DNA of 64,000 bases, taken from IMG/VR virus record IMGVR_UViG_3300044667_000075, positions 61,264 to 125,263 of that record, one strand, 5' to 3'. The translations under genes were made by a program, and so were the position numbers. This stretch comes from a virus. Its lineage: Duplodnaviria; Caudoviricetes. Under the pieces are notes generated by a model. It made no database searches and was not told the origin of the DNA. It was given only the letters and a program-made list of their open reading frames with translations. Shown piece after piece: positions 33,484-36,545 of this stretch (the first letter of the stretch is position 1; every line of letters begins with the position of its first letter).

Positions 33484-33729
33484 ATGGGCCGGGGCCGTGG
33501 TGGTCCGCGCGGACGAGGACCGAGCATCCTTGACCCCTGGAAGGACGCCCTTGAGGCGGAGGTCGCGGCGGACGAGGGCAGGGTCCCGAGGTCTGCGAAG
33601 GTGATAGCCGAGCAGGTCGGCGTGACCGGCGTGTCCTCCGACACGGTGGCACGGTACGTGGGCGGGTTGCGGCGGGCGCAGCGGGCCCGCGTCAGGGCGG
33701 AAGCCCGCAGCGAGGACACCTACCTATGA
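33484..33729 (+). CDS. HTH-like small protein
   Basis: GPSILDPWK...SAKVIAEQV...VSSDTVARYV resembles a transposase-type HTH. Confidence 0.55.
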   Translation: MGRGRGGPRGRGPSILDPWKDALEAEVAADEGRVPRSAKVIAEQVGVTGVSSDTVARYVGGLRRAQRARVRAEARSEDTYL

Positions 33730-34191
33730 GGCTGGCCCGCGCTCTGGCTGCTCGTCGAGCCCGTGATCAAGCAGAGTGATCGCGGCGGCGTTGAGCGTCA
33801 AGCCGCGGTCCCGTGCATACACAGCAAGGCGATTCTTCAGCGACGGGACAACGCGCGGAGTGATGGTGACCGTCTGGAGAGAAGTCTTCGTAGCAAGCCC
33901 GCGCGTCGGCCCAAGATCCTCAACGGCGCACGGCTCGCAATCCGGGCAGCGGCCCGCGTAGGCAACCAGCGCCGCAAGGGTGAGCGGTGGCGTGATGGTC
34001 GACTTCCTGAGCGATGCCCGCCGGTCGATGAAGGCCATGAGCGTGTTGCACCGTGGGCAGAGCACGCCACGAACCCATCCGTGCGCATGGCAGTGGTCGG
34101 TTCTCGGCAGAGGTGACGGGTCGGCGCAGAGTTCGCAAGGCGTTCCGGGTTCGGCCACGGTGTGCTCGCCATAGCGGACGGGCGTCGTCAC
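33724..34191 (-). CDS. endonuclease VII-like domain plus C-terminal RHH
   Basis: CELC...DHCHAHGWVRGVLCPRCN; TITPRVVPSLKNRLAVYARDRGLTLNAA. Confidence 0.8.
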   Translation of the reverse strand: MTTPVRYGEHTVAEPGTPCELCADPSPLPRTDHCHAHGWVRGVLCPRCNTLMAFIDRRASLRKSTITPPLTLAALVAYAGRCPDCEPCAVEDLGPTRGLATKTSLQTVTITPRVVPSLKNRLAVYARDRGLTLNAAAITLLDHGLDEQPERGPAS

Positions 34192-34391
34192 GAGCCCTCC
34201 CCGGATGTAAGCGCGGATACCAGTTCGTCTTGGTGTCGCATGGCGACGTGGATCGCCCTGACGAGCACGTCAGACATTGACAGCCGACGCCCGACCGGGG
34301 TGGTCAGGTCCAGGGTCGCTTGCCTCAACTCATCCCGAGCGGCAAGCGTGAGATTGACGGACACGAAGGCGGTCCGTCTTGGAGTACTCAT
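34188..34391 (-). CDS. RHH-like small DNA-binding protein
   Basis: FVSVNLTLAARDELR...LSMSDVL beta-alpha-alpha pattern; -10 TACAAT 7 nt upstream. Confidence 0.65.
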   Translation of the reverse strand: MSTPRRTAFVSVNLTLAARDELRQATLDLTTPVGRRLSMSDVLVRAIHVAMRHQDELVSALTSGEGS

Positions 34392-34452
34392 GTCCGCTAT
34401 TGTAGCGGACAGTGTTTGACAGTGCCATGATGCTATGGCAAACTTATGGCAA
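34391..34452. promoter_or_regulatory. divergent promoters with a palindromic operator
   Basis: TGTCCGCTA-TTG-TAGCGGACA palindrome; TTGACA(34416)-17-CAAACT; TATGGCAA direct repeat. Confidence 0.6.
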
Positions 34453-34493: not shown

Positions 34494-34572
34494 CCCTCCC
34501 CGGTGCGCAGGCTGCGGCTACTTCACATTTGGGATGCGATCCGTACCGCTGCCGACCCGATCTCGGGGAGGG
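34494..34572 (+). ncRNA. Y-RNA-like RNA 1 with a Pro-UGG anticodon stem-loop
   Basis: Terminal stem CCCTCCCCG/CGGGGAGGG; shared CCCGGTGCGCAGG..TACTTC..GCCGA..GATCTCGGG scaffold; TCACA-TTTGGGA-TGCGA. Confidence 0.75.
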
Positions 34573-34589
34573 TTCACAACTGAATGCTT

Positions 34590-34718
34590 CGCACCTCCCG
34601 GTGCGCAGGTGAACGGGTACTTCAAGGTTCGAATCCTCGTACGGGCTTCCGCAAGGTTCGCCTGTATCGCCCAATTGGCAGGGCTATCCCGGTCGCCGAC
34701 CTGATCTCGGGAGGAGCG
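34590..34718 (+). ncRNA. YrlA-type Y RNA 2 with a permuted tRNA-like domain
   Basis: T loop TTCGAAT, 7-bp acceptor-like stem TACGGGC/GCCTGTA capped by a loop, D arm GCCC-AATTGGCA-GGGC; upstream of TROVE. Confidence 0.85.
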
Positions 34719-34730
34719 CACGTCATAGGA

Positions 34731-34846
34731 CGTGCCCGGTGCGCAGGTGCGGGATACTTCCTGTCTGCTAAACAGGTCTGGGCGGTTCGACTCCGCCATG
34801 GGACGGCTCCCGGATCGTAGCCCTCGCCGATCTGATCTCGGGCACG
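34731..34846 (+). ncRNA. Y-RNA-like RNA 3 with a Ser-GCU anticodon stem-loop and T arm
   Basis: Terminal stem CGTGCCCG/CGGGCACG; CCTGT-CTGCTAA-ACAGG; GGCGG-TTCGACT-CCGCC. Confidence 0.8.
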
Positions 34847-34857
34847 ACCAGTACGCG

Positions 34858-34887
34858 GGCTCCTCCCCAAACGGAGAGGAGCCTTTT
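34858..34887 (+). terminator. terminator/RBS-sequestering hairpin
   Basis: GGCTCCTC/GAGGAGCC stem plus TTTT, 2 nt before the TROVE ATG. Confidence 0.7.
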
Positions 34888-34889
34888 CC

Positions 34890-36545
34890 ATGTCCCGGTT
34901 CAACAAGCCCGCAGCGAGGACGGTCGCCCGCAGCCCGGTCACGTCCGAGGCTGTCCCGTCCGGCCTCACTCACGAAGGTGCTCCCGGCTATGCGCGGGAC
35001 GCTAAGAGCGAACTGTTCCTCTTGGCGGTCGCCTACATGGGGGATGCGACGTTCTACGAGACTGGCAAGGAGCGTGACGCCCGGTTCGCCGATCTCGTCC
35101 GCAAGGTCGCCGTTGAGGATCCCGCTTGGATGGAGGGCTTCATCCCGTGGCTGCGGAACGACGCGAACATGCGCACGGCGTCCCTCGTAGCCGCCGCAGA
35201 GGCACTGAAGGCCCGGCTCGAAGGGTGCCCTGGGCCGCCCCATGCCGGTCACGCGAGCTCGGACTGGACGTGCCCACTTGAGGCTCCCAGCGGCTTCAAC
35301 CGCCGGATAATCAGCGCCGCGCTCCAGCGCGCCGACGAGCCCGGCGAACTGCTCGCCTACTGGCATTCCCTGTACGGCCGGAACGAGCCCAAGCCGCTCA
35401 AGCGAGGCATCGCCGACGCAATCGTCCGGCTCTACACTGAGTTCTCCCTGCTGAAGTACGACACGGACTCGCACGGCTACCGGTTCGGCGACGTGATCGA
35501 ACGTGTCCACGTCACCGGGGAGCACCCGGAGGTCAAGGGCACCTGGAAGGGCGACCTGTACGAGCACGCCATCGACCGGCGGCACGGCCGGGACAACCCC
35601 GTGCCGGAGGAACTGGCCATGATCCGGGCGAACGCCGCGCTGCGCAAGCGGGCCGCGGAGGACCCGTCTGTCCTGCTCGACGCCGCGGCGCTGAAGGCTG
35701 CGGGCATGACGTGGGAGGACGCGCTGTCGCTGGCCGGGAACAAGGTCAGCAAGCGGGACCTGTGGGCCGCGCTGATCCCCTCAATGGGGTTCATGGCGCA
35801 ACTTCGTAATCTCCGCAACTTCGACGACGCGGGCGTCCCGGACGACGTGGCAGGCGACGTGATCGCCCGGCTGACCGACCCGGAGCAGGTGGCAAAGTCA
35901 CGGCAGTTCCCGTTCCGGTTCCTGGCCGCCTACCGGGCCGCGCCGTCGCTGCGGTGGTCGTATCCCCTAGAGCGGGCGCTGAACCTGTCCCTGGCCAACG
36001 TGCCCTCGCTGAAGGGACGGACTCTGATCCTCGTGGACCGGTCGGGTTCCATGTTCGACGGCGTGTCCGCGAAGTCCGGGCTGAACCGGGCCGACACGGC
36101 GGCGCTGTTCGGGTCGGCTCTGGCGCTTCGCTGCGAGCATGCGGACCTGGTGGAGTTCGGCACGGCCAGCCGGCCGGTGCAGTTCCGGGGCGCTGACTCG
36201 GTGCTGAAGGTGATCGAGCGGTTCACGTCAATGGGTGGCACGAACACGGCCGACGCGATCCGGCGGCACTACCGGGACACGTTCCACTCCCGCGTCGTCA
36301 TCATCACCGACGAGCAGGCGTGGGGCGGCTACTACGGAGCTGAGCCGACCTCGCTTGTCCCGGCACCCGTCCCCGTCTACACGTGGAACCTCGCCGGTTA
36401 CAAGCACGGTCATGGGCCCTCTGGATCGGCCAACCGGCACACGTTCGGAGGGTTGACCGACTCGGCCTTCAAGATGATCGGCCTTCTTGAGGCCGGGCGC
36501 GACTGCTGCTGGAGCGACCTGTTCGGCAGGTATCTCCAGCAGTAG
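34890..36545 (+). CDS. rsr: Ro60/TROVE-domain RNA-binding protein with vWA domain
   Basis: THEGAPGY..DAKSELFLL, QRADEPGE, MTWE, MAQLRNLRNF, SRQFPFRFL; MIDAS DRSGS, GGTN, IITDEQ. Confidence 0.95.
   Translation: MSRFNKPAARTVARSPVTSEAVPSGLTHEGAPGYARDAKSELFLLAVAYMGDATFYETGKERDARFADLVRKVAVEDPAWMEGFIPWLRNDANMRTASLVAAAEALKARLEGCPGPPHAGHASSDWTCPLEAPSGFNRRIISAALQRADEPGELLAYWHSLYGRNEPKPLKRGIADAIVRLYTEFSLLKYDTDSHGYRFGDVIERVHVTGEHPEVKGTWKGDLYEHAIDRRHGRDNPVPEELAMIRANAALRKRAAEDPSVLLDAAALKAAGMTWEDALSLAGNKVSKRDLWAALIPSMGFMAQLRNLRNFDDAGVPDDVAGDVIARLTDPEQVAKSRQFPFRFLAAYRAAPSLRWSYPLERALNLSLANVPSLKGRTLILVDRSGSMFDGVSAKSGLNRADTAALFGSALALRCEHADLVEFGTASRPVQFRGADSVLKVIERFTSMGGTNTADAIRRHYRDTFHSRVVIITDEQAWGGYYGAEPTSLVPAPVPVYTWNLAGYKHGHGPSGSANRHTFGGLTDSAFKMIGLLEAGRDCCWSDLFGRYLQQ

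What the first reader, a model, noticed from the sequence alone, without database searches (positions are those of the whole stretch)
34494..34846. Array of three Ro60-associated RNAs on one scaffold, each displaying a different tRNA part, including real-looking anticodon loops
Seen: three tandem units (34494-34572, 34590-34718, 34731-34846). Each is closed by its own 7-9 bp terminal stem and shares CCCGGTGCGCAGG...TACTTC...GCCGA(C/T)C(C/T)GATCTCGGG. The payload after TACTTC differs. Unit 1 has TCACA-TTTGGGA-TGCGA, a 7-nt loop U32 U33 UGG G37 A38, as in tRNA-Pro including the diagnostic G37. Unit 3 has a perfect CCTGT-CTGCTAA-ACAGG (C32 U33 GCU A37 A38, tRNA-Ser) followed by a T arm GGCGG-TTCGACT-CCGCC. 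Unit 2 carries a T/acceptor/D elbow. Known: bacterial YrlA Y RNAs lie beside rsr, mimic the tRNA elbow, and replace the anticodon arm with the Ro-binding stem. Inference: this is a modular Ro60 RNP display system in which interchangeable tRNA mimics, notably anticodon loops that canonical YrlA lacks, act as decoys or baits for host anticodon nucleases and tRNA-targeting toxins (PrrC/RloC, VapC, PARIS-type). That would be a candidate phage anti-defence or RNA-surveillance system.
Basis: partly seen in the sequence, partly recalled or inferred. Interest (0 to 1): 0.92.

Follow-up and report, generated by a model that had tools for sequence, protein, structure and literature searches.

The report
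Phage Ro60 gene with three Y RNAs
Just upstream of its Ro60 gene, a 125-kb actinobacterial phage carries three small partner RNAs (Y RNAs) of a known kind. The hairpin the literature calls their "variable arm" has the exact size and loop pattern of a tRNA anticodon arm, and I found this described in no paper I could search.

Summary
Window 34494-34572, 34592-34716 and 34730-34847 are three tandem units. A covariance model built only from other genomes hits all three (46-58 bits, E 1e-11 to 1e-14). They lie directly 5' of an intact TROVE+vWA Ro60 gene (34890-36545) in a complete 125-kb phage that has no genuine tRNA gene.

They belong to the actinobacterial YrlA/YrlB Y-RNA family (Chen 2014). 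The same scaffold, in arrays of 2-5 units, precedes Ro60 in 79 of 80 actinobacterial loci and in many phages. Array, scaffold and tRNA mimicry are therefore a known kind and not phage-specific.

The possibly new part is the hairpin after UACUUC, published as the "V arm". It has canonical anticodon-arm geometry: a 5-bp stem, a 7-nt Y-U-NNN-R-A loop and a 4-5-nt linker to the T arm. Its stem covaries and its middle loop positions vary. It fools ARAGORN, and two GenBank phage records annotate such units as tRNAs.

- Unit 3: well supported, with a CUGCUAA loop.
- Unit 1: weaker; its Pro-like loop sits on a stem with an A·C mismatch.
- Unit 2: a T/acceptor/D elbow of the YrlB/YrlA type.

The nuclease-decoy idea is untested and was already proposed for YrlA (Hughes 2020). 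This scan has noted similar Ro60-RNA arrays on other DNA.

The parts
34392..34444 (+). Likely regulated promoter of the RNA array. It holds an 8-nt inverted repeat GTCCGCTA-TTG-TAGCGGAC (34392-34410), then TTGACA (34416-34421), a 17-nt spacer and CAAACT (34439-44). A small divergent ORF (34188-34391, minus strand) starts beside it.
   Evidence: Read from the sequence. L010 has TTGACA-16 nt-TAAACT at the same place. The consensus scan did not flag the plus-strand site; it flagged only a minus-strand one. This part is inference.
34494..34572 (+). Unit 1, a short Y RNA. It has a 10-bp terminal stem, UGCGCAGG / CCGACCCGAUCU internal loop, a second stem extended by UAC:GUA, and a tip hairpin TCACA-TTTGGGA-TGCGA (34523-34539).
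   Evidence: R1 gives 45.8 bits, E 1e-11. The fold has z = -2.9. The tip hairpin has one A.C mismatch and no covariation data.
34592..34716 (+). Unit 2, a Y RNA with a tRNA elbow and no anticodon-like hairpin. The T arm (34623-34639) follows UACUUC directly. Then come a 7-bp closed acceptor-like stem (34640-46 / 34660-66) and a D-like arm (34669-34684).
   Evidence: R1 gives 57.9 bits, E 9e-15, with T, acceptor and D arms aligned. Rfam YrlA scores 17.6 bits against a threshold of 69. The CUUC-AAGGUUCGA junction is the same as in the M. smegmatis YrlB probe complement.
34730..34847 (+). Unit 3, a Y RNA with an anticodon-arm mimic CCUGU-CUGCUAA-ACAGG (34760-34776), a 4-nt linker, a T arm (34781-34797) and a 4-bp mini acceptor-like hairpin (34800-34811). 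It has no D arm.
   Evidence: R1 gives 50.2 bits, E 8e-13. ARAGORN calls it tRNA-Ser(gct). The Rfam tRNA clan aligns its anticodon and T arms at only 19 bits. The L010 orthologue has CCUCG-CUGCUAA-CGAGG, with two compensatory pairs.
34858..34887 (+). Hairpin GGCTCCTC...GAGGAGCC followed by TTTT, 2 nt before the Ro60 ATG. It is terminator- or attenuator-like, and its 3' arm contains the GAGGAG ribosome-binding site.
   Evidence: Read from the sequence. An equivalent hairpin is present in L009, L010 and L100. The terminator scan did not flag it because the T run is too short.
34890..36545 (+). Ro60 / Rsr orthologue, 551 aa, with a TROVE ring and a vWA domain.
   Evidence: Pfam TROVE 2e-18 and VWA_2. 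PHROG 850 RNA-binding protein, 2e-45. PDB matches: phage phiLo Ro60 9KOP/9L5Y at 4e-27 and D. radiodurans Rsr 2NVO at 8e-9. D383, S385, S387, T451 and D474 are invariant among 12 homologues; reading them as the vWA metal-binding (MIDAS) residues is my inference from the DxSxS pattern.

Best explanation
This is a cassette of three Y RNA genes followed by the phage's Ro60 gene.

Inferred: the three RNAs are transcribed from one promoter and cut out of a common precursor. Inferred from conservation and from published Ro60-Y RNA work: each RNA closes into a long stem whose conserved asymmetric internal loop (5' UGCGCAGG, 3' CCGAYCYGAUCUC) is the Ro60 binding site.

Shown by homology and covariation: the distal end of each RNA carries a different piece of a tRNA.
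- Unit 1: an anticodon-loop-like tip.
- Unit 2: T arm, 7-bp closed acceptor stem and D arm.
- Unit 3: an anticodon-arm mimic plus T arm.

In the complete relatives, all these pieces together form a whole tRNA that is circularly permuted at position 26/27, with the Ro-binding stem attached at the break.

Inferred, mechanism not shown: the Ro60 particles use these modules to bind or compete for host proteins that recognise tRNA. Candidates are anticodon-loop enzymes such as the position-37 modifiers or anticodon nucleases, elbow binders such as RNase P, TruB and the CCA enzyme, and PNPase. During infection this would couple Ro60 to, or shield, tRNA and RNA metabolism.
For: - A Ro60 gene lies directly downstream on the same strand.
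- Model R1, built from other genomes, hits all three units. It also hits 2-4 full-length units upstream of Ro60, on the same strand, in most of the 52 loci searched.
- The six-helix structure is 95% paired on 50 diverse sequences, with 27 pairs showing compensatory change. No shuffle of 500 reaches this, and slid controls give 35-48% paired.
- The unpaired scaffold letters UGCGCAG are invariant or nearly so. They resemble the published Ro-binding motif GNCGAAN0-1G.
- Sub-threshold Rfam YrlA hits of 31-47 bits fall on the sister units.
- Probe complements of the Rsr-bound M. smegmatis YrlA and YrlB match this family.
- A phage Ro60 has been shown to bind two Y-like RNAs encoded upstream of its gene and to bind host PNPase (PMC12135203).
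- Anticodon-arm geometry: the distance from UUC to the T stem peaks at 22 nt, which equals 5+7+5+5. Of 153 units, 85 have a stem of at least 4 bp with a 7-nt loop, against a shuffle mean of 21 and maximum of 32. Of those 85, 50 read YU-NNN-RA, where about 1% is expected.
Against: - There are no expression, processing or binding data for this phage.
- Rfam YrlA does not reach its gathering score on any unit.
- The scaffold motif starts with U where the published motif has G.
- The crystal structure of Salmonella YrlA puts the Ro-binding stem, not a hairpin, in the anticodon-stem position. The hairpin here may therefore project like a variable arm rather than sit where an anticodon arm does.
- Units 2 and 3 of this phage are each incomplete tRNA mimics.
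- Unit 1's hairpin is imperfect.
- No partner protein is identified.
Confidence: 0.8

Rival explanations
1. Decoy or bait. The anticodon-like loops soak up, inhibit or sense host anticodon nucleases and tRNA-cleaving toxins, protecting host tRNAs that the phage needs. This refines the function in the best explanation and is not exclusive of it.
For: - The loops keep U33 and R37-A38 while positions 34-35 vary between units and between relatives; the triplets seen include GCU, GUU, CUU, UCU, CAU, GAU, UGG and GCA.
- Several different loops can occur in one array.
- This phage encodes no tRNA of its own.
- In Salmonella, rsr and yrlBA sit in an operon induced by anticodon-loop cleavage. Its authors suggest YrlA may competitively inhibit the nuclease (PMC7790460).
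Against: - The same hairpins occur in ordinary actinobacterial chromosomes, so they are not a phage counter-measure as such.
- No nuclease, ligase or toxin gene travels with the cassette, either here or in ten actinobacterial loci.
- The stems begin with the fixed UUC and are not copies of tRNA stems.
- Position 36 is mostly U or G, giving UAA or GGA at 36-38. This fits recognition by position-37 modification enzymes at least as well.
- There are no cleavage or inhibition data.
Confidence: 0.15
2. Evolutionary leftover. The hairpin is the retained anticodon arm of the tRNA, or tRNA dimer, from which YrlA arose. It is kept only because it helps the tRNA-like core fold, and it has no ligand of its own.
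For: - The complete units are colinear with a tRNA permuted at 26/27: a 5-bp stem, 7-nt loop, 5-nt AGGUC-like variable loop, T arm, 7-bp acceptor, UA and a 4-bp D arm.
- The dimeric-tRNA origin model of Sim and Wolin, as cited in 10.1101/312249, predicts an anticodon arm just 5' of the T arm.
- R1 positions 29-108 pick up genuine tRNAs.
- One Rabbitrun unit carries two T arms.
Against: - The loop flanks (C32, U33, A37, A38) and position 36 are conserved across distant actinobacteria and phages while the stems covary. That points to selection on the loop itself.
- Short units keep only this hairpin and no tRNA core.
Confidence: 0.2
3. Unit 3 is a real tRNA-Ser(GCU) gene, as ARAGORN reads it and as GenBank annotates the homologous units in two phages.
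For: ARAGORN makes the call. The same kind of unit is annotated tRNA-Ser(gct) in phage LuckySocke and tRNA-Arg(tct) in phage VanLee.
Against: - No Rfam tRNA hit appears: only tRNA-Sec at 19 bits, E 0.44, against thresholds of 29 and 47.
- There is no D arm, no 7-bp acceptor stem and no long variable arm, which a tRNA-Ser needs.
- The 5' part that ARAGORN uses is the conserved Ro-binding scaffold, which pairs with the unit's own 3' end.
- Rfam tRNA also misses the LuckySocke and VanLee units.
Confidence: 0.02
4. A cis-acting structured leader or attenuator of the Ro60 mRNA, rather than separate trans-acting RNAs.
For: The array lies between the promoter-like site and the Ro60 start. A hairpin plus U run covers the ribosome-binding site.
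Against: - Each unit closes on itself with its own covarying terminal stem.
- Unit number and order vary freely between relatives.
- The homologous M. smegmatis RNAs are discrete, Rsr-bound species.
Confidence: 0.04

Closest known systems
YrlA / YrlB Y RNAs of actinobacteria, as in M. smegmatis (Chen et al. 2014, PMC4201824; Rfam RF02553)
   Same: - The RNAs lie 5' of rsr on the same strand.
- A terminal stem carries a CGAA-like motif near the 5' end.
- The conserved YUAY (here UAC) precedes a hairpin, then T arm, closed acceptor stem and D arm.
- There are several Y RNAs per locus.
- The M. smegmatis YrlA probe complement carries the CUUCUAA hairpin, and the YrlB probe complement carries the CUUC-AAGGUUCGA junction of unit 2.
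   Different: - Rfam's model scores these units at 18-47 bits against a threshold of 69, and its consensus has no hairpin there.
- The literature calls the hairpin a variable arm and states that YrlA lacks an anticodon loop.
- In this phage the tRNA parts are split over three units, and unit 3 has no D arm.
Thermus phage phiLo Ro60 with Yrl1 and Yrl2 (PMC12135203; PDB 9KOP, 9L5Y)
   Same: A phage-encoded Ro60 with more than one Y-like RNA encoded just upstream. It is the best solved-structure match to the window's Ro60 (E 4e-27).
   Different: As described, the phiLo RNAs have a stem-bulge-stem with a CGAA motif, and the passages I read make no mention of tRNA parts. Binding to Ro60 and host PNPase was shown there; nothing is shown here.
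[quoted passage not shown]
   Same: A tRNA-like Y RNA is bound to Ro60, linked to anticodon-loop damage of tRNAs. The competitive-inhibitor idea was proposed there.
   Different: Salmonella YrlA has no hairpin in this position; the Ro-binding stem takes the anticodon-stem place. Its operon carries RtcB, RtcA and RtcR, which are absent here.
Genuine tRNA (Rfam RF00005)
   Same: In the full relatives, the anticodon-arm, variable-loop, T-arm, acceptor and D-arm dimensions and conserved letters all match.
   Different: The order is circularly permuted, the acceptor end is closed by a loop, and there is no CCA end. The window's units are incomplete and none passes the tRNA model.

Membership tests
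Bacterial/phage Y RNA (YrlA/YrlB type) | Encoded within a few kb of a Ro60 (TROVE) gene on the same strand | tested here: met
   The units end 43 nt before the Ro60 ATG on the same strand. The same holds in most of the 52 loci searched.
Bacterial/phage Y RNA (YrlA/YrlB type) | The 5' and 3' ends pair into a stem carrying a conserved Ro-binding motif (GNCGAAN0-1G) on the 5' strand | tested here: inconclusive
   The terminal and second stems covary strongly. The invariant 5'-strand motif is UGCG(C/A)AGG, which matches the published motif except for its first letter. Binding was not tested.
Bacterial/phage Y RNA (YrlA/YrlB type) | tRNA-like module with T arm, closed acceptor-like stem and D arm | tested here: met
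   Unit 2 has all three. Unit 3 has a T arm and a mini acceptor stem only. Unit 1 has none, as with other short Y RNAs.
Bacterial/phage Y RNA (YrlA/YrlB type) | Reaches the Rfam RF02553 gathering score (69 bits) | tested here: not met
   Unit 2 scores 17.6 bits. Sister units score 31-47 bits. The model was seeded mostly from other phyla and lacks the hairpin.
Bacterial/phage Y RNA (YrlA/YrlB type) | Physically bound by Ro60 / Rsr | not testable with these tools
   This needs immunoprecipitation or a gel-shift assay. It has been shown for the M. smegmatis homologues and for phage phiLo.
tRNA | Cloverleaf with a 7-bp open acceptor stem, a D arm, and a score above the tRNA model threshold | tested here: not met
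   There is no RF00005 hit. The best tRNA-clan hit is 19.3 bits, E 0.44. The ARAGORN call rests on the Y scaffold.
Anticodon stem-loop (as a structural mimic) | 5-bp stem, 7-nt loop with Y32, U33 and R37, and a 4-5-nt variable loop before the T stem | tested here: met
   Unit 3 reads CCUGU-CUGCUAA-ACAGG, then UCUG, then the T stem. Unit 1 meets the loop pattern, but its stem has a mismatch.
Anti-defence decoy of anticodon nucleases | Is cleaved by, or inhibits, a tRNA-targeting nuclease and improves phage growth on hosts that carry one | not testable with these tools
   No data. No associated nuclease or repair genes were found.

The most novel reading that the evidence does not exclude
Actinobacterial and actinophage Ro60 particles display whole permuted tRNAs, or isolated anticodon arms, with real anticodon-loop architecture and interchangeable positions 34-35. 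They would be a panel of baits for enzymes that read anticodon loops. In phages the panel would act as a decoy or sensor against host anticodon nucleases. [quoted passage not shown]
Probability: 0.12. Interest if true: 0.8.

Novelty: new variant of a known kind. Interest (0 to 1): 0.5.

Why it matters
The partner of the tRNA-like domain of bacterial Y RNAs has been unknown since 2014, and attention has gone to the T/D elbow. If a large branch of the family also presents a canonical anticodon arm, the list of candidate partners changes. The loop keeps U33 and A37-A38 (or G37-A38) and mostly U or G at position 36, which in my reading are the marks used by the t6A37 and m1G37 enzymes. Position-37 modifiers, anticodon nucleases and other anticodon-loop readers become candidates, and each can be tested directly.

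There is a practical point too. tRNA finders miscall these units, two GenBank phage records annotate such units as tRNA-Ser(gct) and tRNA-Arg(tct), and small ORFs are annotated over them in at least one phage. Phage tRNA inventories near Ro-like genes therefore need checking.

Tried and rejected
- Rfam at gathering thresholds over the whole window gave nothing.
- blastn of the array against 50,697 phage records gave no match.
- PHROG and Pfam searches of neighbouring ORFs gave only an endonuclease VII two genes upstream (33724-34191, minus strand). The small divergent ORF and the 297-aa ORF downstream of Ro60 match nothing.
- Searches of the phage genome for RtcB, RNA ligase and the CCA-adding enzyme were all negative.
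- Pfam on genes flanking ten actinobacterial cassettes showed no conserved partner.
- RNAalifold did not call the anticodon-like helix on the MAFFT alignment, because some rows are out of register and the first pairs are G-U. I therefore counted it with a structure I supplied.
- My first hairpin picker, which took the best stem of any loop size, blurred the signal by closing U32-A38. I replaced it with fixed-loop counts against shuffles and with a count in a fixed register that does not select on pairing.
- The two reviews by Sim and Wolin and the Burroughs and Aravind 2016 paper are not in the held library. I could not check whether they already remark on the anticodon-like hairpin.
- I rejected reading unit 3 as a real tRNA, and the array as a cis-acting leader; see the rival explanations.

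Full report
WHAT IS THERE

The window is the right half of a complete 125-kb, 69% G+C virus record. At 34890-36545 it encodes a 551-aa Ro60/Rsr orthologue.
- Pfam finds TROVE at 2e-18 plus a vWA domain.
- PHROG 850, an RNA-binding protein family, matches at 2e-45.
- The best solved relatives are Thermus phage phiLo Ro60 (9KOP/9L5Y, 4e-27) and D. radiodurans Rsr (2NVO, 8e-9).
- D383, S385, S387, T451 and D474 are invariant among 12 homologues; I read them as the vWA metal-binding residues.

Each has the same layout: a terminal stem of 8-10 bp, the unpaired box UGCGCAGG, a second stem, UACUUC, a variable payload, the return strand of the second stem, the box CCGAYCYGAUCUC, and the return strand of the terminal stem.

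IS IT MORE THAN CHANCE?

I built covariance model R1 from 50 non-redundant homologous units of other genomes, with none from the window. With filters off it finds exactly three matches in the region:
- 34494-34572, 45.8 bits, E 1e-11
- 34592-34716, 57.9 bits, E 9e-15
- 34730-34847, 50.2 bits, E 8e-13

With default filters it finds nothing else in the 64 kb below E 0.6.

On the 50-sequence alignment, the six-helix structure is 95% paired. The helices are the terminal stem, second stem, anticodon-like hairpin, T arm, 7-bp acceptor-like stem and D arm. Twenty-seven of 39 pairs show compensatory change. No shuffle of 500 reaches this, and sliding the partners drops pairing to 35-48%.

WHAT FAMILY IS IT?

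Rfam has no hit at gathering thresholds. In E-value mode, unit 2 is a weak YrlA match (17.6 bits against a threshold of 69). Unit 3 aligns its hairpin and T arm to the anticodon and T arms of the tRNA clan at 19 bits.

Ro60 homologues of 45-50% identity in Streptomyces phages (pSt2308, LuckySocke, BRock) and Gordonia phages (VanLee, Rabbitrun) have arrays of 4-5 such units in front of the gene. So do IMG/VR relatives at 48-85% identity. Their tRNA-like units score 31-47 bits with Rfam YrlA.

A pattern scan of IMG/VR gave about 25 more viral contigs with arrays of at least two units.

The family is not phage-specific. Of 80 actinobacterial Ro60 loci, 79 carry the 5' anchor upstream of the gene; they include Streptomyces, Micromonospora, Actinomadura, Nocardiopsis, Rhodococcus and Kitasatospora. 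R1 finds 2-4 full-length units on the Ro60 strand in most of the 52 loci searched.

The family is tied to experiment through Chen et al. 2014 (PMC4201824). The reverse complements of their Northern probes for the Rsr-bound M. smegmatis RNAs read as follows:
- YrlA: TTACCACTTCTAATGGAATGGTC, which is UAC followed by a hairpin with loop CUUCUAA.
- YrlB: ...GCGACTTCAAGGTTCGACT, which is the same CUUC-AAGGUUCGA junction as window unit 2.

These are therefore members of the known actinobacterial YrlA/YrlB group. A phage Ro60 that binds two upstream-encoded Y-like RNAs and host PNPase has also been shown (PMC12135203).

THE PAYLOADS

Unit 2 is the classical elbow:
- T arm, 34623-34639
- a 7-bp closed acceptor-like stem, 34640-46 with 34660-66
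- a D-like arm GCCC-AAUUGGCA-GGGC, 34669-84

Unit 3 has four parts and no D arm:
- CCUGU-CUGCUAA-ACAGG, 34760-76
- a 4-nt linker
- a perfect T arm, 34781-97
- a 4-bp hairpin, 34800-11

Its orthologue in L010 has CCUCG-CUGCUAA-CGAGG and UGGG/CCCA, so both stems carry compensatory changes.

Unit 1 is a short Y RNA. Its second stem continues through UAC:GUA to a tip hairpin UCACA-UUUGGGA-UGCGA. That stem has an A.C mismatch, the MFE fold prefers a 3-nt loop, and L010 is identical there, so I cannot confirm the 7-nt loop for this unit. The same UUUGGGA loop does occur on covarying stems (UCAU/AUGA, CGA/UCG, UA/UA) in front of T arms in L009, L019, L042 and L146.

THE ANTICODON-LIKE HAIRPIN

[quoted passage not shown] Wang et al. 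state that YrlA "lacks the anticodon loop".

Across 263 non-redundant units I find the following.
- The distance from UUC (of UACUUC) to the T stem peaks sharply at 22 nt: 57 units at 22 nt and 96 at 21-23 nt. That equals 5+7+5+5, the length of tRNA positions 27-48.
- With no selection on pairing and one fixed register, the five stem pairs are 69-88% paired. The two loop-proximal pairs covary: CG 34 / GC 23 / UA 7, and AU 45 / CG 20 / UA 7.
- Of 153 units with a T arm, 85 have a stem of at least 4 bp closing a 7-nt loop, against a shuffle mean of 21 and maximum of 32. No other loop size exceeds its shuffles, except 9 nt, which I take to be mostly the same hairpins minus the closing pair.
- Of those 85 loops, 50 read Y-U-NNN-R-A where about 1% is expected. 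The stem is 5 bp in 57, and the linker to the T stem is 4-6 nt in 70, typically AGGUC-like.
- Units without a T arm show the same enrichment: 29 of 93 against a shuffle mean of 7.6, with 15 of the 29 reading YU-NNN-RA.

Positions 34-35 vary. The triplets seen at 34-36 include CUU, GCU, GUU, CAU, GAU, UCU, UGG, CCA and GCA. Position 36 is mostly U or G, so positions 36-38 read UAA or GGA. From general knowledge, U36-A37 and G36-G37 are the determinants of t6A37 and m1G37.

ARAGORN miscalls five such units as tRNAs. GenBank annotates tRNA-Ser(gct) in LuckySocke and tRNA-Arg(tct) in VanLee at such units, although Rfam's tRNA model does not hit them. R1 positions 29-108 in turn pick up genuine tRNAs.

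In the complete relatives the order is: anticodon arm, 5-nt variable loop, T arm, 7-bp acceptor closed by a loop, UA, 4-bp D arm. That is a whole tRNA circularly permuted at 26/27, with the Ro-binding stem attached at the break.

Two things remain open. Whether the hairpin or the Ro stem stacks under the D stem in three dimensions cannot be decided here; in the Salmonella structure, which has no hairpin, it is the Ro stem. The arrangement does fit the dimeric-tRNA origin model cited in that paper.

FUNCTION

Shown: homology, structure and linkage to Ro60.

Inferred from the literature: the conserved internal loop binds Ro60 and the distal module recruits or competes for other proteins.

The decoy idea is not new. 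Hughes et al. [quoted passage not shown] The presence of real anticodon-type loops makes that idea more concrete, but nothing here tests it.
- The hairpins are just as common in chromosomal cassettes.
- The phage has no RtcB, RNA ligase or CCA enzyme.
- The actinobacterial cassettes have no conserved neighbours.
- The phage encodes no genuine tRNA.

I rate "Y RNAs of the phage Ro60 displaying tRNA parts" at about 0.8. I rate the specific nuclease-decoy role at about 0.15.

NOVELTY

The array, the scaffold and the tRNA mimicry are a known kind. Three things appear in none of the papers I could search:
- the canonical anticodon-arm nature of the "V" hairpin;
- short Y RNAs that carry only that hairpin;
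- the distribution of tRNA parts over separate units, as in this phage.

Rfam's model does not cover these features either. Three papers that might mention them were not available to me. Other windows of this scan have reported similar Ro60-RNA arrays, including anticodon-arm RNAs, on other DNA; I did not check those notes.

Noticed in passing
L003:1274-1347 (Streptomyces phage LuckySocke gene 36) and L005:1204-1275 (Gordonia phage VanLee gene 125): GenBank annotates tRNA-Ser(gct) and tRNA-Arg(tct) here. Both lie inside Y-RNA units directly upstream of the Ro-like gene. Rfam's tRNA model does not hit them, while R1 does (and Rfam YrlA hits the VanLee unit). They are probably misannotated Y-RNA modules.
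   Followed up: partly
L006:921-1278 (Gordonia phage Rabbitrun gp93, gp94): Two annotated hypothetical-protein CDSs overlap Y-RNA units detected by the anchor scan and by R1 (978-1096 and 1186-1384). The ORF calls are doubtful.
   Followed up: no
L006:1186-1384: One Rabbitrun unit is 195 nt long. It carries two T arms (GCGGGTTCGAATCCCGC and GGGGTTCGAATCCCC) before a single D arm. This dimeric-tRNA-like layout bears on the proposed origin of YrlA from tRNA dimers.
   Followed up: no
window 34573-34593 and the equivalent spacers in L009, L010, L011, L132, L147 and L150: The spacer between units keeps a motif CACAACU(G/U/C)(A/C)A (here TTCACAACTGAATGC) across phages and bacteria. It may be a processing signal or an internal promoter element. 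Unexplained.
   Followed up: no
window 34188-34410: A divergent 67-aa ORF (minus strand, ATG at 34391) has no Pfam or PHROG match. It abuts an 8-nt inverted repeat (34392-34410) next to the array's TTGACA. In VanLee a ribbon-helix-helix protein and a HicA-like toxin sit upstream of the array. This may be a repressor and its operator controlling the Y RNAs.
   Followed up: partly
window 34858-34887: An 8-bp hairpin plus TTTT ends 2 nt before the Ro60 ATG, and its 3' arm contains the GAGGAG ribosome-binding site. It is conserved in L009, L010 and L100. It could set an excess of RNA over protein.
   Followed up: partly
L003:3467-3699 and L004:3579-3742: There are sub-threshold Rfam manA RNA matches (48-50 bits against a threshold of 55) between the two tRNA-Lys genes downstream of the Ro-like gene in LuckySocke and BRock.
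   Followed up: no
L012:1835-1984 and L018:328-476: A Y scaffold carries a quite different, large G+C-rich payload (…CCCGAGGGGAUUC…GGACCCCGAAC…) with no tRNA parts. L009:1680-1801 likewise has a non-tRNA payload. The scaffold also hosts unrelated modules.
   Followed up: no
G000, whole phage genome: The complete 125-kb phage has no genuine tRNA gene. The only ARAGORN call is the pseudo-tRNA inside unit 3.
   Followed up: yes
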